Shown here piece by piece: positions 5,330 through 62,391 of a stretch of DNA of 64,000 bases. The notes beneath the pieces were generated by a model that saw only the letters and a list, made by a program, of their open reading frames with translations, searched no databases and was not told the DNA's origin. The stretch's first letter is position 1; the number at the start of each line of letters is the position of its first letter. The stretch comes from Candidatus Woesearchaeota archaeon (GTDB lineage: Archaea; Nanobdellota; Nanobdellia; Pacearchaeales; GW2011-AR1): NCBI GenBank assembly GCA_964623495.1, contig CAZUTV010000001.1, positions 44,682-108,681 of the forward strand, read 5' to 3'. Position numbers and translations under genes: made by a program.

Positions 5330-5359
5330 GGTATAATAAAATAAAAATAAAATAAAAAA
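5330..5359 (-). terminator. oligo-T terminator downstream of the DsbA-like gene
   Basis: Minus strand reads ATTTTTTATTTTATTTTTATTTTATT immediately after the stop. Confidence 0.35.
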
Positions 5360-6061
5360 TTATTTTGCAAGCTCTGCGTCAATTGCCTGCTTGAATACTT
5401 CGTATGGTTGTGCACCGCTTATGAATGCCCCATTAACAAAAAACCCGGGAGTTCCCTGAACCCCATAGCTTTGCCCGTCAGTCATGTCTTTTCTTATTTC
5501 GCCTGCCATCTGTCCAGAGTCAAGACAGCTGTTGAACTTGCCTATATTGAGCCCTATCTGCTGAGCATAAGCCTTCAAGCTATTCACATCTAATGCTTTC
5601 TGGTTTGTAAAAAGCTTGTCATGCATTTCATAATATTTTCCCTGCTCTCCAGCACACTCCGCAGCTTCTGCTGCTTTTTGAGCATTAGGGTGGAAGCTTA
5701 ATGGAAAGTCTCTGAAAACAATTCTTACTTTTCCGGTATCAACATATTCCTTCTTTATTTGTGGATATGTCTGGCTGAAGTGCCTACCGCAATACGGACA
5801 TTCATAGTCACTGAATTCAACCATTGTTACTTCTGCATCTTTGTTGCCAAGAATGGCGTCGTCATCAATGCTTACCTGAACTTTTGAAGGCTCAGGACTA
5901 GGTACACTATCTCCTGCAACTGCATTGCCTGTCACGCTTCCTCCACTCATTCCAAATCCGCCAGTGAATAGGCTTATGACAAATAATGCTGCAAAAAGGA
6001 AGGTTCCTATCTGCCACATAGTGTGTTTTTTAACAGTTATTGATTCTTCTCTTTGTTCCAT
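5360..6061 (-). CDS. DsbA-like thiol:disulfide oxidoreductase, membrane-anchored
   Basis: Thioredoxin-fold CPYC active site (FSDYECPYCGRHF); N-terminal TM; likely start at internal MWQIG. Confidence 0.75.
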   Translation of the reverse strand: MEQREESITVKKHTMWQIGTFLFAALFVISLFTGGFGMSGGSVTGNAVAGDSVPSPEPSKVQVSIDDDAILGNKDAEVTMVEFSDYECPYCGRHFSQTYPQIKKEYVDTGKVRIVFRDFPLSFHPNAQKAAEAAECAGEQGKYYEMHDKLFTNQKALDVNSLKAYAQQIGLNIGKFNSCLDSGQMAGEIRKDMTDGQSYGVQGTPGFFVNGAFISGAQPYEVFKQAIDAELAK

Positions 6062-27707: not shown

Positions 27708-28172
27708 CTAAACCTGATAAACGGTCTTTCTCGTGCAAACATGTTCTTTTCCTCTAGAATCTTTAAAATAAGCAAAAACTTCTATTTTAATGGGTATTGC
27801 TTCGGTATTTATTCCAGAAATGCTTTTAGAAACACTTTCTAAAGGGACTATATTCCCTGAAACATCTATAACCCCGCCGTTTTCTCCAACACCATCATAA
27901 AATATAACTTTTAATCCGGCAATTTCTCCTCCTCCTGCTTTTCTGGTAAAGGTAACTTTACAGGTATAATCTCCACCGCCAAAAACACATCCAGAGATAG
28001 AATTCGCAGTTACATCTATCTCAAGGCAATTGAAAGAGCTACCAGTTGTCTCAACTCCGCCTTGAATAACCTTATGAACCACGGCCCAAACAGTCCCTAT
28101 ATCTACAAGTACAAGAAGAATTATAATAAGGGTTGTTACAACCGTAGACAATCCTCTTTTTTTTGGTCTCAT
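27708..28172 (-). CDS. archaeal type IV pilin-like protein (class III signal peptide)
   Basis: MRPKKRGLSTVVTTLIIILLVLV N-terminus; the track ORF starts further upstream at an unlikely Met. Confidence 0.65.
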   Translation of the reverse strand: MRPKKRGLSTVVTTLIIILLVLVDIGTVWAVVHKVIQGGVETTGSSFNCLEIDVTANSISGCVFGGGDYTCKVTFTRKAGGGEIAGLKVIFYDGVGENGGVIDVSGNIVPLESVSKSISGINTEAIPIKIEVFAYFKDSRGKEHVCTRKTVYQV

Positions 28173-32238: not shown

Positions 32239-32682
32239 CTAAAATGCGTATGTTGCCGGTGGGCTACAAATGTGGTTTTGTCCTGTAGTATCCTTAAAGT
32301 AAGGAGATACTTCGACTGAAGAAGGAGCTATAAGGTCATTAGCAGCAGTTAATGTTTTTGTTTCTAAAGCTCCTACATTTCCGCTAACATCAACAATAGT
32401 GCTAGATGCAGTTCCATTTTTGTATACTACCATCACACCTGAGAGGTCTTCTCCTCCTGCGCTCCTACTAACAATAACTCCTGTAGGATCAGTGGCACCC
32501 CCCGTGATATTTGTTACACTTAAAGCAACCTGAAAGCACTTGGCTCCGTAATCCACGCTTTGTGAACCTCCCTCTACAATTCCCCTAATAACTACCCAGA
32601 TAATCCCTATAGCTACAAGTACAAGAAGAATTATAATAAGGGTTGTTACAACCGTAGACAATCCTCTTTTATTATTAATCAT
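32239..32682 (-). CDS. archaeal type IV pilin-like protein (class III signal peptide), paralogue of 27708-28172
   Basis: MINNKRGLSTVVTTLIIILLVLVAIG. Confidence 0.65.
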   Translation of the reverse strand: MINNKRGLSTVVTTLIIILLVLVAIGIIWVVIRGIVEGGSQSVDYGAKCFQVALSVTNITGGATDPTGVIVSRSAGGEDLSGVMVVYKNGTASSTIVDVSGNVGALETKTLTAANDLIAPSSVEVSPYFKDTTGQNHICSPPATYAF

Positions 32683-35232: not shown

Positions 35233-37026
35233 TTAATCTCCAAGGTAACCGCCTTTCTGCAGATTCCAGAGTTTTCTGTACTCTCCAGGCCTTCTAATTA
35301 AATCAAGATGCTTTCCTTCTTGGATTATCTTACCTTCTTTCATAACAATTATCCTGTCTGCATTCATAATGGTTGAAAGCCTATGCGCAATTATTATTGA
35401 AGTTCTTCCTTTAAGCAATTCGCTAAGCGCTTCTTGTATTTTATGCTCGGTTTCTGAGTCTAATGAAGAAGTTGCCTCATCAAGAACAAGAATTTTTTTA
35501 TTTGCTAAAATTGCCCTTGCTATAGAAACTCTCTGTTTTTCTCCTCCAGACAGCTTTACTCCTCTTTCTCCAACAATAGTATTCTCTTTGTAAGGAAATG
35601 CTTTCACAATATCATAAAGCCTGGCAAGTTTTATTGCATTCATGACCTCGCTTCTTGAAGCGTCTGGCTTTGCGAATTTTATGTTATTATAGATTGTATC
35701 ATCAAACAAAAGACATTCCTGGGGAACAATCCCTGTTTCTCCCCTTACCGATTCCTGCTTGAAATCTCTTAAATCTCTCCCATCTATAAGTATCTGCCCG
35801 GAATCAACATCATAAAATCTGTTTAGCAGTTTAACAATTGTTGTTTTCCCAGATCCGGAATGCCCCACAAGGGCAATTTTTTCGTTTTCCTTTATTTTTA
35901 AATTAAAATTCTTCAGCAATTTTCTGTGTCCGTAGCTGAAAGAAACGTCTCTAAATTCAATGACTCCTTTCTGAATATCTATGTTCTTTGCTCCGGGTTT
36001 GTCTTTTATCTCGTTCTCTTTCTTCCCGTATTCAAATAAATCTTGGAAATCGGCCATGGATCTATAAAATCCCCTAATTCCCCCAACAAAGCCAAACATT
36101 GCCCCGACAATCTGGGAATAAACAGTGTAAACAAAAACAAGAGTTCCAAGACTCAATTCTCCGGCCAAAAACTCTTTTATTGGGAAGTAAATTAAGAAAA
36201 ATGTTCCAAGGGTAAGTATAAATGACTGGCCTGCATCAAACCACCTAAAATAACCCCAGTATTTCCATGCAGTGTTTTTTGATTTTAGGGCTTTTTTTTC
36301 ATACTGCGCCTTTACAAGCTGCTCTTTTCCAAGATATTTTACAGAATCTATATTCATAAAAACATCGCTTATCATGCCTTTTTCTCTGTCTTCTGCTTTA
36401 ATAAAATCAAGCTTTGATTTCTGCTGCAATTCTAGTATGTAATAACTATAAATTGTGAATACAATCGTTGTTAAGAGAATTACAATTGCAGGAACGATGC
36501 TGAAATAAGCAAGAGAAAACATCACAACAACTATATTGATAAATAAAGGAATAAAGTTAAACGTGAGGATATCTGTCATATTCTCTACTGCCCCAGCTCC
36601 TCTAATCATCCTAGAAACCATTGACCCGGTTCTGTGTGTTGTATGGAAGTTATGATCCAAATCAACAATATGGTTAAAATACTTCCTCTTTATATCTAAA
36701 ATAATCTTTATATCTAATTTTGCTAGGAAATAGTGTGTAAACCACTTAGAAATAATTCTTACAGCTCTGGCAGTTAGATAAATTATCACTATGACCATCA
36801 GGGTTTTTACAAAAATATCTGCCAGTAAGCTCCCCTCGATGAATCTGGCCCCGTCGTCTATTATTCTCTTGAATAGGAATTTTTCAACAACAGGAAGAGT
36901 CTCTGCAACAAGAGAAACAAACAAAAGCAAAAAGAACAAACCCTTGTACTTGCCCAAGACCTTCCAGTATTCTCTAAGATTATACCTAAAATCTATTTTT
37001 TCTCCGTGTCTTCCTTTCATCTTCAT
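35233..37026 (-). CDS. ABC transporter, fused permease/ATPase (exporter type)
   Basis: 6-TM domain, Walker A GHSGSGKTT, LSGGEKQR signature, Walker B ILVLDEATS. Confidence 0.85.
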   Translation of the reverse strand: MKMKGRHGEKIDFRYNLREYWKVLGKYKGLFFLLLFVSLVAETLPVVEKFLFKRIIDDGARFIEGSLLADIFVKTLMVIVIIYLTARAVRIISKWFTHYFLAKLDIKIILDIKRKYFNHIVDLDHNFHTTHRTGSMVSRMIRGAGAVENMTDILTFNFIPLFINIVVVMFSLAYFSIVPAIVILLTTIVFTIYSYYILELQQKSKLDFIKAEDREKGMISDVFMNIDSVKYLGKEQLVKAQYEKKALKSKNTAWKYWGYFRWFDAGQSFILTLGTFFLIYFPIKEFLAGELSLGTLVFVYTVYSQIVGAMFGFVGGIRGFYRSMADFQDLFEYGKKENEIKDKPGAKNIDIQKGVIEFRDVSFSYGHRKLLKNFNLKIKENEKIALVGHSGSGKTTIVKLLNRFYDVDSGQILIDGRDLRDFKQESVRGETGIVPQECLLFDDTIYNNIKFAKPDASRSEVMNAIKLARLYDIVKAFPYKENTIVGERGVKLSGGEKQRVSIARAILANKKILVLDEATSSLDSETEHKIQEALSELLKGRTSIIIAHRLSTIMNADRIIVMKEGKIIQEGKHLDLIRRPGEYRKLWNLQKGGYLGD

Positions 37027-37261
37027 AAATTTTATATACTTCCAGTACCTTTATTTATAATGAAAAAGCTGACTATCGAGTCAGGTTCGGTATTTGATTA
37101 TAAGGAATCTGATACTGATCAGGACGAACTCGAAGAGCCTTTTCCCGATTCTAAAGAGGAAGAAGACGTTTCTTCCGTTAACTAAAAAACAATTTTTACC
37201 TTATAAACCTTTTTTCCTTAGCATTTTTGGAAAAGCTCATTATCAAAACCTTTTTTAATCT

Positions 37262-37405
37262 CCTCTTCCTTAATTTAACCATGGTTGAATATCGAATCAC
37301 TCAGAGGCATCGAAAAGATTCGACCTCGGTTGCTGGATCGAGAATTTACACGAATAATTCAAAAGGAGTGTGGGTTCGAGCAATAAAAACCCGCCGGAGG
37401 TTTTT
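37262..37405 (+). promoter_or_regulatory. GC-enriched structured leader / candidate cis-regulatory or small RNA element
   Basis: About 45% GC versus about 33% context; hairpins TCGAATC(16 nt loop)GATTCGA and CTCG..CGAG; terminal stem AAAAACC-CGCCGGA-GGTTTTT occludes the GGAGG SD 6 nt before the ATG at 37406. Confidence 0.3.
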
Positions 37406-38818
37406 ATGGTTGAAATAAAGAGTGTGGCAGACATAATAAAAGAAATCTCCCCATACTATAAGGAAAAGGGCGGACCAGAAGCAGAACATAAGCTTGTTTA
37501 TGACTCAAGCTCTGAAACTCTCGAGCCAGTTTACTTTTATATCATTGACTTAATGAATGATCTAGGGTTTAAAATTGAAAAACTAGTTGATAACTTTTCT
37601 TCTTCTGTGGGTTCTGGCCATTTTTCAGAACTTGGCCAAAGAGCAACAATTATGCAGCAGCAAGGAGCAAAAATTCTTGGTGATGTCAATACGGTTCTAA
37701 GATCTGTATTAAATATTGTATACGATTTAAAGGAATTCAGAATAAGACTTCAAACCTACGACGACTTGAAATCAAAAGATAAAAAGAAATCAGAAGGTGC
37801 AAAATACTCGCTAAAACAAATCTGGATGGATAAGGTTGATATTAACAAGGGAAATTCAAGCATAAAGGCAATGGCTCTCGGGCAGGCAGGATTTCAAACT
37901 CTAATAGACGCATTTCTAATTGTTAATGACGAAAAACTTAAGGGGCCTGATGGAAAAGAACTTGATCTGAATGACAGAGTTAAAAGAATAGTCCAGCAGA
38001 GAATTTCAGAATACAATATCTGGATTAAACAATCAGAGATGGAATTAAGAAAAAGATTTGAATTAGAGAAAACCTACCTTAAAAGCCAGGTCAATGCCCT
38101 AAAACTTTACACAAGATGGGCCAAACCCTACTTAAAAGCCGCTTCTCAGCTAGAAACAAAAGACTTTGGGAGAGATCCTGCACTAGTCAAGGTTTTCAAC
38201 ACCCTTCTCCTTGAACTAACACTTCTTGGAGCCAGGGAAATAAAAGTCAAAGAATCTGCCCTTGAAGGGGATCTTCCAAGAGAATTCACTAGAGAAGGAT
38301 TCATAAAGTCCTTGAAGAGAAAATACCATGTGTGTGTTTTGGTTGATTTTGTTTTTAGGGGGATTCCGCAAAGAGCAGGCCAGCAATTCCATTATGTTTT
38401 TGGAGGAAAAGTGGATGTTATTTTTAGAGGTTATGTTTTAAACGATGATGAGATAAATAAGATTAAGGAAGTTTTGGACAAATCAGACCTCTCAACAGCC
38501 CTATCTTTAGTTGAAGGGACCACAGAAGAAAGTCTTTCCCAAATTGAAGAAGAAATAAACTTTTATTTGGAAGAAAGAGATGAAAGTAAAGAAGAGAAGA
38601 GCGATGAGTCAAATCCTTTTCTGGCATTGTTTGGATTCTATAATAAGTCAGATTCAAAGTCTTCTGGAAAGAAAGAAAAGAAAGAGATAATCGTAGCCAA
38701 AGACAGCTGGGTTGAAAAAGCCCATCTCAGAAGGCTTGGGTCTGAAAAAGCAGTAGAAGACGCTTTTAAGGTCTTTGAAACCTACAAAAAGTCCCATGAT
38801 ATGCCTGCGTACACTTAA
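37406..38818 (+). CDS. hypothetical 470-aa largely alpha-helical protein
   Basis: ORF; track start 37370 is GTG inside the structured leader; no recognisable motifs. Confidence 0.5.
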   Translation: MVEIKSVADIIKEISPYYKEKGGPEAEHKLVYDSSSETLEPVYFYIIDLMNDLGFKIEKLVDNFSSSVGSGHFSELGQRATIMQQQGAKILGDVNTVLRSVLNIVYDLKEFRIRLQTYDDLKSKDKKKSEGAKYSLKQIWMDKVDINKGNSSIKAMALGQAGFQTLIDAFLIVNDEKLKGPDGKELDLNDRVKRIVQQRISEYNIWIKQSEMELRKRFELEKTYLKSQVNALKLYTRWAKPYLKAASQLETKDFGRDPALVKVFNTLLLELTLLGAREIKVKESALEGDLPREFTREGFIKSLKRKYHVCVLVDFVFRGIPQRAGQQFHYVFGGKVDVIFRGYVLNDDEINKIKEVLDKSDLSTALSLVEGTTEESLSQIEEEINFYLEERDESKEEKSDESNPFLALFGFYNKSDSKSSGKKEKKEIIVAKDSWVEKAHLRRLGSEKAVEDAFKVFETYKKSHDMPAYT

Positions 38819-38846
38819 TAATAAGCTTTAAAAAGCCAGGTAGTAA

Positions 38847-39263
38847 ATGATTTCTATGGCAACAGAAGCATTAGTGGTTAAACTTTCAGCTCCGTTTAGC
38901 AGACACAGGGGAAACTGCCAGTGTCCAAATTTAATGCCCCTCTGGGAGCAAATGGCTGAAACAGACAGAGCAGAAGCAGAGGCCAGAAGATATGCAGAGC
39001 AGTTTGCAGAGAACCCAGAGAAATACAAAAGAGATGTTATTTTTCAAGATGCGCTTATAAGGAGAAGGAGAAGTTTTGAATTGGCGCTTGAACTATACAG
39101 GGATGTTTTTGCACAAGCCGCAAGATCAAAAGGAATAATTTTTGAATCTGGTGGAAGAGTTGTTGAACCAGACATCATCCAAGAAGGCCAGCAATATACT
39201 ATGAACTGCAGCACTTGCAGAACAGAAATTCCTTTTGTGGAATACGAAGGCTGGAACCAGTAA
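38847..39263 (+). CDS. hypothetical protein with CxC...CxxC
   Basis: ORF; GNCQCP and NCSTCRTE. Confidence 0.4.
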   Translation: MISMATEALVVKLSAPFSRHRGNCQCPNLMPLWEQMAETDRAEAEARRYAEQFAENPEKYKRDVIFQDALIRRRRSFELALELYRDVFAQAARSKGIIFESGGRVVEPDIIQEGQQYTMNCSTCRTEIPFVEYEGWNQ

Positions 39264-39293
39264 TCTTATAAATTCTGATTAATTCTTTGATTT

Positions 39294-39734
39294 ATGTCTA
39301 TGTACAAAAAAAGAGACATTGATGAGAGGTTAAGAAATCTTGGTGCAACTCCCTTATACAAGGAAGGATGGGATTATGCAGTTACCTATAAGGGCGTGAG
39401 AATTCCAGGGATTAAGGTGACTCATCCGGGCAATGAAATTCCTGACGGTGCTGTAAGCAAGCTTGCAAGAGAAATTGCAGACATAGGAAATCTAAATTCA
39501 AATGATGTTAAAAAGGTCTTGAGGGGGATGCGCCCTTCACTTGACACCGGATTAAATTCGGGGATTTTAACCGCTTCATTTGTCTTGATAATGCTTATAA
39601 TTTCAAGAACAAAAATTCTTACGGGCAATGTAATCGGAAATATTCCTTCTTCTGCCTTAAATGGTTTAATAATCTTAGTTGTCTTTATTATTCTTGGATT
39701 GCTCTTATTAAAATTCAGAAGAGATAACTCTTAA
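39294..39734 (+). CDS. hypothetical protein with two C-terminal TM helices
   Basis: ORF plus hydrophobicity. Confidence 0.4.
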   Translation: MSMYKKRDIDERLRNLGATPLYKEGWDYAVTYKGVRIPGIKVTHPGNEIPDGAVSKLAREIADIGNLNSNDVKKVLRGMRPSLDTGLNSGILTASFVLIMLIISRTKILTGNVIGNIPSSALNGLIILVVFIILGLLLLKFRRDNS

Positions 39735-39768
39735 CAAATTTTATATATCTCTTGTTCTTTAGCTTTAT

Positions 39769-40365
39769 ATGGAAAAAACCAGCAAGCCAGCCAAAAAATC
39801 AAGCAAAATTCAAAAAACTCTTGGAAAAGTCAAGTTCAAGGAAATAATCATTCCTCTTGAGAAATCTGAAAAAAAGGAATTAGAACCTCCCAGGAAGGAT
39901 TCTGGCTTGGAGGAAGAAATTATTGAAGCAGAGGAAATAATAGATTCCCGGCAATTTCAGAAATTTTTAACAGCGTCCGGCTCCCCAACCTTAGAAAGTA
40001 TAGGAGGATCCCAGCAGCAAAGAGTAAGATTTGTTAGAAGCGAAAGGTCCGAAAGAGATCTAGATAACGATTCCTTAAAATACGATCAGGGCGGAAAAGA
40101 TTATTTTTCTCCAAATCAGGCAGATCCTGGATCTGGAAAAAGAGATTACTCTATGATAAGCGAAGCTCAGCCTTTAAGAGGAAATGATAATACTAGCAGA
40201 TTTTTGCTAAAGCCTGAAGCGCCAATGTCAGATAGGATAGAAAATCAGGCGCCATATCCTGAGATGGGAAGGCCAATAATGAATCCGGAATTTGCGCAAA
40301 ATAGAACAAAGCTCCCTTTTGAAATGGCCAAGGAAGATAAAAAATATAAAGAAGCTAGATTTTAG
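39769..40365 (+). CDS. hypothetical low-complexity / disordered protein
   Basis: ORF; Lys-rich N-terminus; Pro/Glu/Arg-rich C-terminus. Confidence 0.4.
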   Translation: MEKTSKPAKKSSKIQKTLGKVKFKEIIIPLEKSEKKELEPPRKDSGLEEEIIEAEEIIDSRQFQKFLTASGSPTLESIGGSQQQRVRFVRSERSERDLDNDSLKYDQGGKDYFSPNQADPGSGKRDYSMISEAQPLRGNDNTSRFLLKPEAPMSDRIENQAPYPEMGRPIMNPEFAQNRTKLPFEMAKEDKKYKEARF

Positions 40366-49990: not shown

Positions 49991-50169
49991 CTATAGGGCC
50001 TGAAAACCTGCGGTTTTCGATCCATGAAGCAACTTCCTTTCTTTGCCTCTGATGGAAGTTTTGATCCCGAAAACCTACAGATGTAAAACATAAAAACACC
50101 TTTTAAAACTTACTAAAACAAGTAAACTGAAAAATCAGAAAAAAATAGAAAAAAGAAAAATAAAAAAGC

Positions 50170-59173: not shown

Positions 59174-60055
59174 ATGAATAGATTTCAGATTCCTTTTACC
59201 CTTGCAGACATAGAGATTCAAAAAAGAAAAAGCAAGAGATTTATAAAATTCGCCAGCGCAAAAAAAACAAAGCTGGATGAATATCTAAAAGCAGCCAATG
59301 TTAATCTTAATAAAAGAGAATATCTTGCAATATGCTACAGAAGATTTTTAATAAACATTATTAGCTTCTCAGTAATAGCCTCCTCTGTTCTTGGAATTTT
59401 AAGGACAAGCCTCTTTCCTGTTTACGGATTCATAATTTCTCTGTTGATATCCGGCCTGGTTTATTTTAATCAGATAAATTATCCAAAAGTATATACCTTA
59501 AACAAACAAAGGGATGTAGACAAAAACCTTATTCCTGTGCTTCAGGATATGATAGTTCAATTAAATTCAGGAGTTCCCATATTCAGAATTCTCTCTAATA
59601 TCTCTGAATCAGATTACGGGGAAGTTAGCGTGGAATTCAAAAAAATAGTAAAGGAGATTAATTCGGGGGTTTCCCAGATTGATGCAATAGAAAAGCACGC
59701 AAAACTTAATACTTCCGAGTATTTCAAAAGAGTTTTGTGGCAGATCAGCAACGGCATGAGGGCTGGAAGCGACATGGAAATTGTCATAAAAGAAGGAATA
59801 AAGAATTTAAGTGACGAACAAGCAATCCAAATCCAGACCTACGGAAATAGGTTAAACCCTTTAATTATGTTTTACATGTTAATTGCAGTTATAATTCCTG
59901 CATTGGGAATAACTTTCCTTATCATTCTTGCATCTCTTCTAGGATTTCCCGAAAAAGTAATTCATCTTATATTTGTAGTTATCTTTGTGATAGTTGTATT
60001 TATGCAGATAATGTTTCTTGGATTAGTCAAATCAAGGAGGCCAAGTTTATTATGA
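59174..60055 (+). CDS. FlaJ/TadC-like membrane protein, single T2SSF domain
   Basis: T2SSF cytoplasmic domain plus 3 TM. Confidence 0.7.
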   Translation: MNRFQIPFTLADIEIQKRKSKRFIKFASAKKTKLDEYLKAANVNLNKREYLAICYRRFLINIISFSVIASSVLGILRTSLFPVYGFIISLLISGLVYFNQINYPKVYTLNKQRDVDKNLIPVLQDMIVQLNSGVPIFRILSNISESDYGEVSVEFKKIVKEINSGVSQIDAIEKHAKLNTSEYFKRVLWQISNGMRAGSDMEIVIKEGIKNLSDEQAIQIQTYGNRLNPLIMFYMLIAVIIPALGITFLIILASLLGFPEKVIHLIFVVIFVIVVFMQIMFLGLVKSRRPSLL

Positions 60056-60149
60056 TAAATAAAGAATATTTTTGTACTAACTTCCATCAGAGGCAACTAA
60101 GGGAAGTTGGCGCGGATGCTGGATTGAAAACCCGCAGGAGGTTTTCAAT

Positions 60150-61112
60150 ATGAATACGCTAAAGTTTTACCCCAGACAATTAAGAGAGTCTTATGAAAAA
60201 AATATTAAAAATGCAGGAATTGAAAATCCTCCTGAAAAGTACCATAACTTTATTTTTTATATAACTCTAATGCTTGCCGTGATTTCAATGGGATTCTTTG
60301 CAATAATAGGGATGACCATATATTTTTCCTTGGTTGTGTTTATCTTCTTGAATGCATTTATCTACTTTAAAATAAGTTTGAAGGCAAGCGCCAGAATAAA
60401 AAAAATGGAAACTATATTTCCGGACGTTATTTCACTAATGGCAAGCAATCTTCGTTCAGGAATGACAATAGATAAATCCTTTCTTTTGGCTGCACGTCCA
60501 GAATTTGATCCCTTGGATAAAGAAATATTAAAAACCGGAAAAGAAATAACTACAGGCCAGGACATAATATTTGCGCTAAAAAGACTTGGGATAAGAGTAA
60601 ACTCTGAGAAAATCTCAAAAGTCGTGACTTTAATAATCTCAGGATTAAGGGCAGGAGGAAATATCTCTGACTTGTTAGACCAAACATCAAAGAACATGAA
60701 AGAAAAAGAGATTATTGAAAAAAAGGCAAGATCAACTATTTTAATGTATGTTATCTTCGTATTTTTTGCAGTTGGGGTGGGAGCGCCAATACTTTTCGGG
60801 TTAAGCTCAATCCTGGTGGAGATTGTTATGGCGTTAACTTCAAAGCTGCCTGAGGCGGCAACCGCAAGTACAAATCTGCCTTTATCATTTAAGGAAATAT
60901 CCATATCTCCAAGTTTTGTCATTTACTTTTCATTATTCTTTATAGCAGTTACAGACCTGATCTCCTGCATAGTAATAGGTTTAGTAAACAAGGGGGAGGG
61001 AAAGGCAGGATTAAGGTATTTCCTACCCTTACTTGCAGTAAGTTATGTTCTGTTCTTTATAATTAGGTCTTTACTGTCAAAGACACTAGTAAGCTCCTTA
61101 TCAGTAATATAG
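60150..61112 (+). CDS. FlaJ/TadB-like membrane protein, single T2SSF domain
   Basis: T2SSF domain plus TM. Confidence 0.7.
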   Translation: MNTLKFYPRQLRESYEKNIKNAGIENPPEKYHNFIFYITLMLAVISMGFFAIIGMTIYFSLVVFIFLNAFIYFKISLKASARIKKMETIFPDVISLMASNLRSGMTIDKSFLLAARPEFDPLDKEILKTGKEITTGQDIIFALKRLGIRVNSEKISKVVTLIISGLRAGGNISDLLDQTSKNMKEKEIIEKKARSTILMYVIFVFFAVGVGAPILFGLSSILVEIVMALTSKLPEAATASTNLPLSFKEISISPSFVIYFSLFFIAVTDLISCIVIGLVNKGEGKAGLRYFLPLLAVSYVLFFIIRSLLSKTLVSSLSVI

Positions 61113-62264: not shown

Positions 62265-62391
62265 TGCGCGGACCGGGAATCGGACCCGGGTCACCTCGTC
62301 TTTGCATTTTTGCTTCTTTGAGCGCCGAACTTTCTTTCTAAAGAAAGTTGGGCATTGGCAACGAGATATTCTACCATTAAACCATCCGCGC
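62265..62391 (-). tRNA. tRNA-Gly (GCC) with about 54-nt intron in the anticodon loop
   Basis: Perfect acceptor GCGCGGA/TCCGCGC and T-arm CCGGG-TCCGATT-CCCGG; anticodon stem TCTCG...CGAGG interrupted after TTGCCA by an insert with an internal hairpin. Confidence 0.7.

What the first reader, a model, noticed from the sequence alone, without database searches (positions are those of the whole stretch)
37027..37405. GC-rich structured leader with SD-sequestering hairpin
Segment 37262-37405 is about 45% GC against a context of about 33%, a common hallmark of structural RNA in AT-rich genomes. It holds a 7-bp perfect stem with a 16-nt loop (37286-37315), a second short stem, and a terminal hairpin AAAAACC/GGTTTTT. 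The loop and 3' arm of that hairpin contain the GGAGG Shine-Dalgarno 6 nt before the ATG of the first cluster gene. This looks like a riboswitch expression platform or RNA thermometer. The same intergenic region carries a 42-aa highly acidic ORF, MKKLTIESGSVFDYKESDTDQDELEEPFPDSKEEEDVSSVN.
Basis: seen in the sequence. Interest (0 to 1): 0.55.

Follow-up and report, generated by a model that had tools for sequence, protein, structure and literature searches.

The report
Mobile RNA element supplying ribosome-binding site
The structured "leader" is real, but it is not a gene-specific switch: it is one copy of a small repeated element that has inserted in front of many housekeeping genes, and into tRNA genes, of these tiny (DPANN) archaea. 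Here it separates a formerly leaderless gene from its promoter and supplies a ribosome-binding hairpin in exchange.

Summary
The hairpins and the GGAGG before the ATG exist, with small coordinate and number errors. They belong to a conserved structure that no Rfam family matches. The segment is not a riboswitch. Window 37290-37405 is a composite copy of a 50-80 nt element with three parts: hairpin P1, the linker UGGUUGCUGGAU, and hairpin P2 carrying GGAGG. I found about 85 copies in Woese-/Pace-/Nanoarchaeota contigs, three of them in this window. Both helices covary. About 50 copies end 5-9 nt before the start codon of unrelated housekeeping genes, 11 are tRNA introns in either orientation, and some are tRNA 5' leaders.

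In relatives the downstream 470-aa gene is leaderless: a BRE/TATA motif ends 21-22 nt before the ATG in 45 of 76 loci. In the window that motif is followed 22 nt later by a relic start, ATGGTTGAA (37281-37289). Then comes the element, then the same 9 nt as the true start (37406). This is an insertion with a target-site-like duplication. Two close relatives have the empty site and one has the filled site.

The most likely function is a portable Shine-Dalgarno leader. A uORF from the relic AUG may feed ribosomes to the true AUG, because repeat periods are always 3n+2. How the element moves is unknown. The 41-aa acidic ORF is a separate, probably real, leaderless gene.

The parts
37030..37038 (+). 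TATA box (TTTTATATA) of the small acidic ORF; 21 nt separate it from the ATG, which is leaderless geometry
   Evidence: same geometry in relative L209
37060..37185 (+). Small acidic ORF, 41 aa, a separate transcription unit. It has a positional and weak sequence homolog in L209 (39% identity over 28 aa, pairwise E = 7e-5). No other homolog was found.
37193..37229 (+). Three T5-T7 tracts (37193-37198, 37210-37216, 37224-37229). They are plausible archaeal oligo-T termination signals after the small ORF (inferred).
   Evidence: role inferred from general knowledge of archaeal termination
37245..37259 (+). BRE/TATA promoter motif AAAACCTTTTTTAAT of the 470-aa gene. It is identical to the motif in the empty-site relative L213.
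37281..37289 (+). Relic start ATGGTTGAA (direct repeat 1). It begins 22 nt after the 13-nt motif matched (AAACCTTTTTTAA, 37246-37258), at the modal leaderless position. It is the presumed 5' end of the transcript.
37281..37418 (+). uORF of 45 codons from the relic ATG. It reads through the whole element and the SD hairpin and stops at TAA 37416-37418, 10 nt past the true ATG.
   Evidence: open frame alone is not significant, 7.4% of shuffles
37290..37405 (+). Inserted repeat element, a composite of about 1.5 copies
   Evidence: covariance model R2: 52.1 bits for 37289-37365 plus 22.5 bits for 37384-37405; flanking 9-bp direct repeat
37292..37323 (+). Hairpin P1: 7-bp stem TCGAATC / GATTCGA, 18-nt loop with the conserved CAGAGGCA
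37328..37338 (+). Conserved linker GGTTGCTGGAT, here inside a small hairpin (37325-37342)
37342..37360 (+). Decayed first P2 (GAATT...AATTC), without an SD
   Evidence: alignment
37370..37394 (+). Copy-specific alternative helix GTGGGTT / AACCCGC (-8.0 kcal/mol). It excludes P2 and is not conserved in the family.
37385..37405 (+). Hairpin P2: AAAAACC-CGCCGGA-GGTTTTT, carrying the Shine-Dalgarno GGAGG (37396-37400) 5 nt before the ATG
37406..38818 (+). True 470-aa gene. Its first 9 nt (37406-37414) form direct repeat 2. It is a conserved DPANN protein of unknown function.
60075..60151 (+). Second, clean copy of the element, between two T2SSF genes of a pilus/archaellum-like operon. Its uORF (60052-60153) overlaps the upstream stop (ATGA) and the downstream start (ATGA).
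   Evidence: (81.7 bits)
49997..50064 (-). Third copy, in the 5' leader of tRNA-Val(TAC). P2 is kept but its loop is GCA, with no SD.
   Evidence: 40 bits

Best explanation
SHOWN.
- Window 37290-37405 is a copy of a dispersed, structured 50-80 nt repeat family of DPANN archaea. The family architecture is P1 hairpin, linker UGGWUGCUGGAU, then P2 hairpin with GGAGG.
- The copy lies between the promoter and the coding sequence of a gene that is leaderless in most relatives.
- It is flanked by a 9-bp duplication of the gene's first three codons (ATGGTTGAA).

INFERRED.
- Transcription still starts about 22 nt after the TATA box, at the relic AUG (37281). The mRNA now has a 125-nt leader.
- The element's 3' hairpin provides a Shine-Dalgarno sequence 5 nt before the true AUG. 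Initiation therefore switches from leaderless to SD-dependent, and the element acts as a portable ribosome-binding site.
- P2 pairs 3 of 5 SD bases and should damp free initiation.

MORE SPECULATIVE (about 0.4).
- Ribosomes still load on the 5'-terminal relic AUG and translate the 45-codon uORF through the element, which melts P2.
- They terminate 10 nt past the true AUG and reinitiate there with help from the SD (termination-reinitiation relay).

How the element spreads is unknown. It behaves like a non-autonomous mobile element that makes target duplications. It survives where it is harmless (tRNA introns, tRNA leaders, gene ends) or where it restores a start signal.
For: Family and structure:
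- About 85 copies were found with covariance models R1 and R2.
- P2 and P1 both covary.
- There is no Rfam match.

Insertion:
- The promoter motif ends 21-22 nt before the ATG in 45 of 76 homologous loci. Only the window (147 nt) and L003 (132 nt), the two loci with the element, are far out.
- In the window the motif plus 22 nt lands on ATGGTTGAA, identical to the true start.
- Empty sites in L213 and L211 have the same promoter, and in L211 the same ATGG.TGAAATAAA start. L209 has a filled orthologous site scoring 77.7 bits.
- The same architecture (TATA, 20-22 nt, gene-specific repeat, element, repeat plus gene) occurs at other genes: L089 (10 bp) and L162 (13 bp). Duplicated tRNA ends occur in L121, L173 and L146.

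Function:
- 51 of 75 SD-bearing copies have an ATG 5-9 nt after GGAGG, and about 50 of these open real ORFs.

Relay:
- 36 of 52 ORF-preceding copies have an out-of-frame uORF that runs through P2 and stops between -3 and +30 of the main ATG. In 23 of 52 the stop overlaps the start as UAAUG or AUGA.
- Window copy 2 is a perfect stop/start, uORF, stop/start relay.
- The repeat period of all 9 start-proximal duplicated insertions is 3n+2. Four post-stop insertions give 1, 0, 2, 1.
Against: - No transcript data exist: the start site, leader and uORF translation are all inferred.
- There are no terminal inverted repeats, and no transposase was found among the 20 window ORFs scanned.
- Duplication lengths vary from 9 to 19 bp, which is unusual for a transposase.
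- The metagenome search pattern contained the SD, so the fraction of SD-bearing, ATG-adjacent copies is inflated. SD-less copies exist (window copy 3, L004 6803-6870).
- The hairpin partly sequesters the SD, which sits oddly with highly expressed genes unless something opens it.
- The open frame of this copy's uORF is expected in 7.4% of shuffles.
- Related subfamilies share lengths, so the 3n+2 cases are not fully independent.
- The filled site in L209 could be an independent insertion rather than inheritance.
Confidence: 0.7

Rival explanations
1. Gene-specific riboswitch or RNA thermometer. The leader senses a ligand or temperature and opens or closes the SD hairpin to control the cluster.
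For: - The SD hairpin is conserved and covaries.
- 3 of 5 SD bases are paired. The folding energy is about -7 kcal/mol at 37 C and about -11 kcal/mol at 15 C.
- In this copy an alternative helix, 37370-37376 with 37388-37394 (-8.0 kcal/mol), competes with P2.
Against: - No Rfam hit.
- The element precedes many unrelated housekeeping genes and forms tRNA introns and leaders, so there is no common pathway.
- There is no conserved multi-helix junction, and the P1 and P2 modules occur separately.
- The alternative pairing is not conserved.
- Most orthologs of this gene have no leader at all.
- A non-specific temperature effect on all copies remains possible.
Confidence: 0.08
2. Bulge-helix-bulge intron in the 5' region. 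The splicing endonuclease removes the element between the two direct repeats and regenerates the ancestral leaderless mRNA.
For: - The same element is the intron of 11 tRNA genes, with strict hBHBh' motifs in 4 of them.
- Excision anywhere within the 9-nt repeats would restore the original mRNA exactly.
- There is a precedent: a 46-nt BHB intron in the 5' UTR of Haloferax HVO_1309 (PMC7714728).
Against: - No BHB can be drawn at the boundaries of this copy. For splice sites inside the repeat, the central 4-bp helix would have to be self-complementary, and it is not.
- A scan of 27 mRNA-context copies gave only A/U-rich chance hits with inconsistent positions.
- Conservation of GGAGG at optimal spacing from the ATG, and the 3n+2 rule, argue that the element stays in the mRNA.
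Confidence: 0.05
3. Neutral relic. A selfish repeat landed here and is merely tolerated; the SD and hairpins serve the element's own mobility as DNA hairpins, not translation.
For: - Target-site-like duplications, presence/absence polymorphism, tandem and decayed copies, both orientations in introns, and SD-less copies.
- Covariation is equally expected for DNA hairpins recognised by a transposase.
Against: - After the insertion the gene has lost its leaderless context, so something must direct initiation at 37406, and GGAGG at -5 is the obvious candidate.
- SD-to-ATG spacing is tightly peaked at 7-8 nt.
- The 3n+2 rule holds only for start-proximal copies.
- The element is present at the orthologous site in L209, with a fully different but still paired P1.
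Confidence: 0.15

Closest known systems
Transposing tRNA introns of Thermoproteales (Fujishima et al. 2010, recalled from memory; the topic is reviewed in PMC4090602) and mobile-element-driven tRNA intron gain in Caldiarchaeum (PMC3293823)
   Same: Families of near-identical short sequences occupy introns of different tRNA genes, which implies intron gain by movement of a sequence. The introns are bounded by BHB motifs.
   Different: Here the same sequence also forms mRNA 5' leaders with a Shine-Dalgarno sequence and tRNA 5' leaders. It occurs in both orientations in introns and is flanked by 9-19 bp direct repeats at non-intron sites. The lineage is DPANN.
Bacterial small non-autonomous repeats that carry expression signals or insert into genes: Correia elements (Neisseria), RPE (Rickettsia), REP/BIME (all from general knowledge, not tested here)
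   Same: Short, structured, multi-copy, non-coding elements. Insertions are tolerated next to or inside genes. They can donate promoters, processing sites or reading-frame-compatible sequence.
   Different: This element has no terminal inverted repeats and no fixed TA or fixed-length duplication. It is archaeal, and it donates an SD hairpin to formerly leaderless genes and serves as a tRNA intron.
BHB intron in the 5' UTR of Haloferax volcanii HVO_1309 (PMC7714728)
   Same: An about 46-nt structured insert in an archaeal 5' UTR, related in kind to tRNA introns.
   Different: That one has a verified BHB and is spliced. No BHB was found around the window copy, and that case is a single-gene, vertically conserved one.
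SD-sequestering hairpins and RNA thermometers (fourU, ROSE) and riboswitch expression platforms
   Same: A hairpin ending at the start codon pairs part of the SD.
   Different: The GG of the SD pairs with CC, not with a U4 tract, and GGA sits in the loop. There is no aptamer. The element is shared by dozens of unrelated genes.
Termination-reinitiation coupling at overlapping stop/start codons (AUGA, UAAUG) in archaeal and bacterial operons (general knowledge, e.g. work in Haloferax)
   Same: In 23 of 52 copies the element's uORF stop overlaps the main start. An SD lies just upstream.
   Different: Here the upstream cistron is a short uORF created by the insertion itself and begins at a relic leaderless AUG. 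This is untested.

Membership tests
Known riboswitch / cis-regulatory RNA families (Rfam 15) | Significant match to a curated covariance model | tested here: not met
   No hit at gathering score in the window. There are only noise hits at E of 1 or more in 36900-37550 and 60040-60170.
Riboswitch (generic) | Association with genes of one pathway or one ligand | tested here: not met
   Downstream genes are diverse housekeeping genes, plus tRNA contexts.
Riboswitch (generic) | Conserved alternative pairing between sensor and expression platform | tested here: not met
   The GCNGG:CCCGC pairing is possible only when N = G. In the family N is U > G > A > C. This copy's alternative helix is idiosyncratic.
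RNA thermometer | SD occluded in a weak hairpin that melts in the physiological range | tested here: inconclusive
   P2 pairs 3 of 5 SD bases, with -7 to -10 kcal/mol at 37 C and -11 to -15 kcal/mol at 15 C. Melting behaviour and growth temperatures cannot be tested here.
MITE (miniature inverted-repeat transposable element) | Terminal inverted repeats | tested here: not met
   The ends (TATCGAATC... and ...GGAGGTTTTT) are not complementary. The hairpins are internal modules.
MITE | Target-site duplication flanking the element | tested here: met
   Gene-specific direct repeats of 9-19 bp in the window, L089, L162, L121, L086, L075 and L134. Each is reached by at most 1% of right-flank shuffles. 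The length is not fixed.
MITE | Multi-copy, non-coding, with presence/absence polymorphism at orthologous sites | tested here: met
   About 85 copies. L213 and L211 are empty, while the window and L209 are filled.
MITE | Autonomous partner element with the same ends and a transposase | not tested
   No transposase was found among the 20 window ORFs scanned. Whole genomes were not available.
IS200/IS605-derived or REP-like palindromic elements | Subterminal hairpins, insertion without target duplication, associated Y1 transposase | tested here: not met
   Hairpins near both ends are present, but direct repeats flank the copies. No Y1 transposase was seen, and the search for one was limited.
Archaeal BHB intron | hBHBh' (or relaxed) motif placing both junctions in 3-nt bulges 4 bp apart | tested here: not met
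   Met for tRNA copies L119, L136, L128 and L102. Not met for the window copy or other mRNA-context copies.
Intrinsic terminator / oligo-T attenuator | Hairpin followed by a T-tract conserved as at least T5 | tested here: not met
   The T-run in the 3' arm varies among subfamilies: TTTTT, TTTTC, TTTG, TTTC. The scan found no terminator on the + strand here.

The most novel reading that the evidence does not exclude
A previously undescribed class of archaeal mobile element converts leaderless genes into leadered ones.
- It inserts within the first codons of a gene, or at tRNA 5' ends and anticodon loops, and duplicates the target.
- It keeps the old 5'-terminal AUG as the start of a frame-tuned (3n+2) uORF.
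- It hands ribosomes to the true AUG through its own SD hairpin.
- The same sequence doubles as a spliceable tRNA intron.

A further extension: antisense copies released, and possibly circularised, from tRNA introns could pair with the SD hairpins of the many housekeeping mRNAs that carry the element. That would couple tRNA expression to translation of the translation apparatus.
Probability: 0.3. Interest if true: 0.85.

Novelty: new variant of a known kind. Interest (0 to 1): 0.66.

Why it matters
DPANN archaea are uncultivated, have tiny genomes, and almost nothing is known about how they control gene expression.
- This element gives a concrete, testable picture of how a leaderless gene acquires a Shine-Dalgarno leader in one step.
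- It links the origin of tRNA introns to a mobile sequence that also lives in mRNAs.
- It identifies a conserved RNA structure shared by the 5' ends of many core translation and secretion genes.
- Practically, it explains spurious upstream ORFs and start-codon ambiguities in annotation. Examples are the relic ATG at 37281 and the duplicated MxSYT* mini-ORFs.
- It provides a covariance model with which complete DPANN genomes and metatranscriptomes can be mined.

Tried and rejected
- **Rfam** at gathering score and at E = 10: nothing.
- **tRNA-like reading** of GGGTTCGAGC: ARAGORN finds no tRNA here.
- **BHB intron at this locus:** my scanner recovers the tRNA-intron BHBs but gives only inconsistent A/U-rich hits for mRNA copies.
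- **Conserved anti-sequestor helix:** rejected, the key position does not covary.
- **Conserved uORF peptide:** rejected. The N of CGCNGG gives R/W/G, and subfamilies read P2 in different frames.
- **Oligo-T attenuator:** the T-run is not conserved.
- **Viral origin:** 7 IMG/VR hits are bare 17-mers, not the element.
- **Homologs of the 41-aa ORF:** none in 5.8 billion proteins. Only the syntenic L209 ORF resembles it.
- **Identity of the 470-aa protein:** no Pfam hit, no PDB sequence hit and no PDB fold hit.
- **Transposase in the window:** none among the 20 ORFs scanned.
- **Literature:** no paper in the held library contains the motif or describes such an element in DPANN.
- **GC richness as evidence:** rejected, the segment is only in the top 10% of windows.

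Full report
**Context.** The window is from a DPANN archaeon. Homologs of its proteins are named Nanoarchaeota, Pacearchaeota or Woesearchaeota. Overall GC is 35.7%, and one tRNA carries an intron. The finding lies in the 379-nt divergent spacer between two genes:
- an ABC transporter (35233-37026, minus strand);
- a 470-aa protein (37406-38818, plus strand).

The 470-aa protein has no Pfam domain. It has more than 2,400 homologs at 60-70% identity, all called hypothetical.

**Check of the observation.**
- The three stems and the GGAGG are present, with small corrections.
  - The perfect 7-bp stem is 37292-37298 / 37317-37323, with an 18-nt loop.
  - The second stem is 37325-37331 / 37336-37342.
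  - The last hairpin is 37385-37391 / 37399-37405, with GGAGG at 37396-37400, 5 nt before the ATG at 37406.
- GC of 37262-37405 is 42.4%. About 10% of windows of that size reach this value, so it is not informative.
- The single-sequence fold is marginal, z = -1.88.
- Rfam has nothing here.
- The acidic ORF is 41 aa (37060-37185).

**The leader is a repeated element.**
- The 19-mer of the last hairpin recurs at 60127-60145, directly before another ATG (expected 0.05 matches).
- Aligning that site, the window copy and a similar leader in relative L003 showed a common architecture:
  - a 7-bp hairpin P1 whose stem sequence differs completely between copies, while its loop (AUCRGAGGCAA) is conserved;
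  - a conserved linker UGGWUGCUGGAU;
  - a hairpin P2 (GAAAACC-CGCNGGA-GGUUUUC) that ends 2-6 nt before an ATG.
- Covariance models built from these copies found further copies in 80 genomes carrying the 470-aa gene. With one metagenome pattern scan, the total is about 85 copies.
- P2 is 93.9% paired over 56 distinct copies. Double-sided changes number 51, against 12.3 in shuffles. The four outer pairs, which were not fixed by the search pattern, carry the variation.
- In P1 all seven pairs covary.
- With filters off, the window holds three copies: this one (52.1 plus 22.5 bits; it is a composite with a decayed first P2 and a second intact P2), 60075-60151 (81.7 bits), and 50064-49997 on the minus strand (40 bits).

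**Where copies sit.**
- About 50 copies end just before the start codon of a real ORF. In 51 of 75 SD-bearing copies an ATG follows GGAGG by 5-9 nt, peaking at 7-8.
- The genes are unrelated housekeeping genes: Sec61beta (4 contigs), aEF-1beta, aIF2alpha, ribosomal proteins S3Ae, L44e, S10, L11 and L1, SRP54, RFC, RNase HII, SMC, a CBS protein, and the pilus T2SSF gene.
- Eleven copies are the intron of a tRNA gene: 4 in sense and 7 in antisense orientation. My scanner finds strict BHB motifs in four of them.
- Others are the 5' leader of a tRNA (window tRNA-Val; L141, L150) or sit just after the stop codon of the 470-aa gene.
- This distribution excludes a metabolite riboswitch.

**This copy is an insertion.**
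- In 45 of 76 homologous loci a conserved BRE/TATA motif (AAAC[AC]TTTTTTAA) ends 21-22 nt before the ATG. This is the geometry of a leaderless mRNA.
- Only the window (147 nt) and L003 (132 nt) are far out, and they are the two loci with the element.
- In the window the motif is at 37246-37258. Exactly 22 nt later comes ATGGTTGAA (37281-37289), then the element (37290-37405), then ATGGTTGAA again as the true start.
- Among the closest relatives, L213 and L211 show the empty site: the same promoter, then 20-21 nt, then the ATG (ATGGGTGAAATAAAA in L211).
- L209 shares the ABC-transporter and small-ORF synteny and has a clean copy at the same place. It scores 77.7 bits, was found independently of the search pattern, and has a different but fully paired P1.
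- The same layout (TATA, 20-22 nt, gene-specific repeat, element, repeat plus gene) is seen at other genes in L089 (10 bp) and L162 (13 bp).
- Duplicated tRNA 5' ends or T-loops flank copies in L121, L173 and L146. A duplicated TATA box flanks the copy in L086.
- The element therefore makes, or requires, target-site-like duplications of 9-19 bp.
- It has no terminal inverted repeats. No transposase was seen in the window, and it is not found in viral contigs.

**How it probably works (inferred).**
- After insertion the gene can no longer be translated as a leaderless mRNA from its own AUG. The GGAGG of P2, 5 nt upstream, is the evident replacement.
- P2 pairs three of the five SD bases (-7 to -10 kcal/mol), so free initiation should be damped.
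- A recurrent feature suggests how the hairpin is opened.
  - In 36 of 52 ORF-preceding copies, an out-of-frame uORF begins at or before the element's 5' end, often at the relic or 5'-terminal ATG. It reads through P2 and stops within -3 to +30 of the main ATG.
  - In 23 of 52 the stop overlaps the start as UAAUG or AUGA.
  - In window copy 2, the upstream gene's TGA overlaps the uORF's ATG (60052), and the uORF's TGA overlaps the downstream ATG (60150).
  - In the copy under study the uORF runs 37281-37418 (45 codons). Its openness alone is not significant (7.4% of shuffles).
- The period between the duplicated, gene-specific repeats is 3n+2 in all nine start-proximal cases: 47, 50, 71, 83, 104, 125, 125, 167 and 182. 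In the four copies that lie after a stop codon it is 118, 69, 110 and 70.
- This is what selection for a stop/start hand-over would give. It is the basis for the termination-reinitiation relay that I propose, at moderate confidence.

**Rivals.**
- A BHB intron that restores the leaderless mRNA is attractive, given the tRNA-intron copies and the Haloferax HVO_1309 precedent. But no BHB fits the boundaries here or in other mRNA copies. The conserved SD spacing and the frame rule argue that the element stays in the mRNA.
- A purely neutral relic is possible but leaves the gene without a start signal.
- A general thermometer effect cannot be excluded.

**The small ORF.**
- It has its own TATA box (37030-37038), 21 nt before its ATG, and T-tracts after its stop codon.
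- The gene caller also calls it on an independent assembly.
- It has a syntenic counterpart in L209 with a shared SV(F/I)DYKE(S/N) core (pairwise E = 7e-5) and no other homologs.
- It is most likely a real, lineage-restricted small acidic protein, unrelated to the structured element.

**Novelty.**
- I found no description of this element in Rfam or in the searchable literature.
- Small structured mobile repeats and transposing tRNA introns are known kinds.
- I believe it is new for one element to be a tRNA intron, a tRNA leader and an SD-donating, frame-tuned mRNA leader for formerly leaderless genes.

Noticed in passing
window 37406-40365 (ORFs 37406-38818, 38847-39263, 39294-39734, 39769-40365): Four consecutive genes have no Pfam domain. 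The 470-aa protein has more than 2,400 homologs at 60-70% identity across Woese-/Pace-/Nanoarchaeota, all called 'hypothetical'. Its AlphaFold model (pLDDT 74) shows long helical hairpins plus a beta sheet and matches no PDB fold. It is a highly conserved DPANN core protein of unknown function.
   Followed up: partly
window 60052-60153 (between T2SSF genes 59174-60055 and 60150-61112): A clean copy of the element lies inside a T2SSE-T2SSF-T2SSF-KaiC (pilus/archaellum-like) operon. A 33-codon uORF has an ATG overlapping the upstream stop and a stop overlapping the downstream ATG. The same gene carries the element in metagenome contig L099.
   Followed up: partly
window 49997-50107, minus strand: A copy of the element forms the 5' leader of tRNA-Val(TAC), preceded by a TATA-like GTTTTAAAAGG. 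Its P2 hairpin is kept but has lost the SD (loop GCA).
   Followed up: partly
window 62265-62391, minus strand: tRNA-Gly(GCC) has a 56-nt intron. Rfam finds it but default ARAGORN misses it. The intron hairpin AACTTTCTTT / AAAGAAAGTT followed by GTTCGGCGC resembles P1 plus linker of window copy 2. It may be a decayed copy.
   Followed up: no
L075 2800-2960, L134, L018 5400-5540, L072 4400-4510; decayed in L028, L052: There is a hot spot of element copies right after the stop codon of the 470-aa gene. The gene's last 18 nt (M-x-S-Y-T-stop) are duplicated behind the element as a 5-codon mini-ORF. In L018 the two copies differ at 4 positions, all synonymous. The element's first bases pair with the gene's last codons, and that pairing covaries between loci. 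This is unexplained.
   Followed up: partly
element linker and P2, e.g. window 37328-37338 and 37388-37400: The invariant GCUGGAU and AACC(C)GC.GG strings resemble the 3'-terminal region of archaeal 16S rRNA (...GAACCUGCGGCUGGAUCACCUCC), as I recall it from memory. No 16S gene is in the window, so this was not tested. It could hint at a shared binding protein or be chance.
   Followed up: no
window 28085-28163 and 32595-32673: Two 79-nt stretches are 94% identical, 4.5 kb apart, and lie inside or at the ends of minus-strand ORFs. They may be paralogous gene segments.
   Followed up: no
L059 (labelled Omnitrophota) and L071 (labelled Patescibacteria): Two MAGs labelled as bacterial carry this archaeal gene with the archaeal BRE/TATA promoter. 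This is likely binning contamination.
   Followed up: no
L061 about 5340-5420; L009 580-646: There are other small duplications around the same gene without the element. In L061 the C-terminal about 40 nt are duplicated after the stop codon. L009 has a tandem AAATAAAGAGGAAT repeat forming a 66-nt leader.
   Followed up: no
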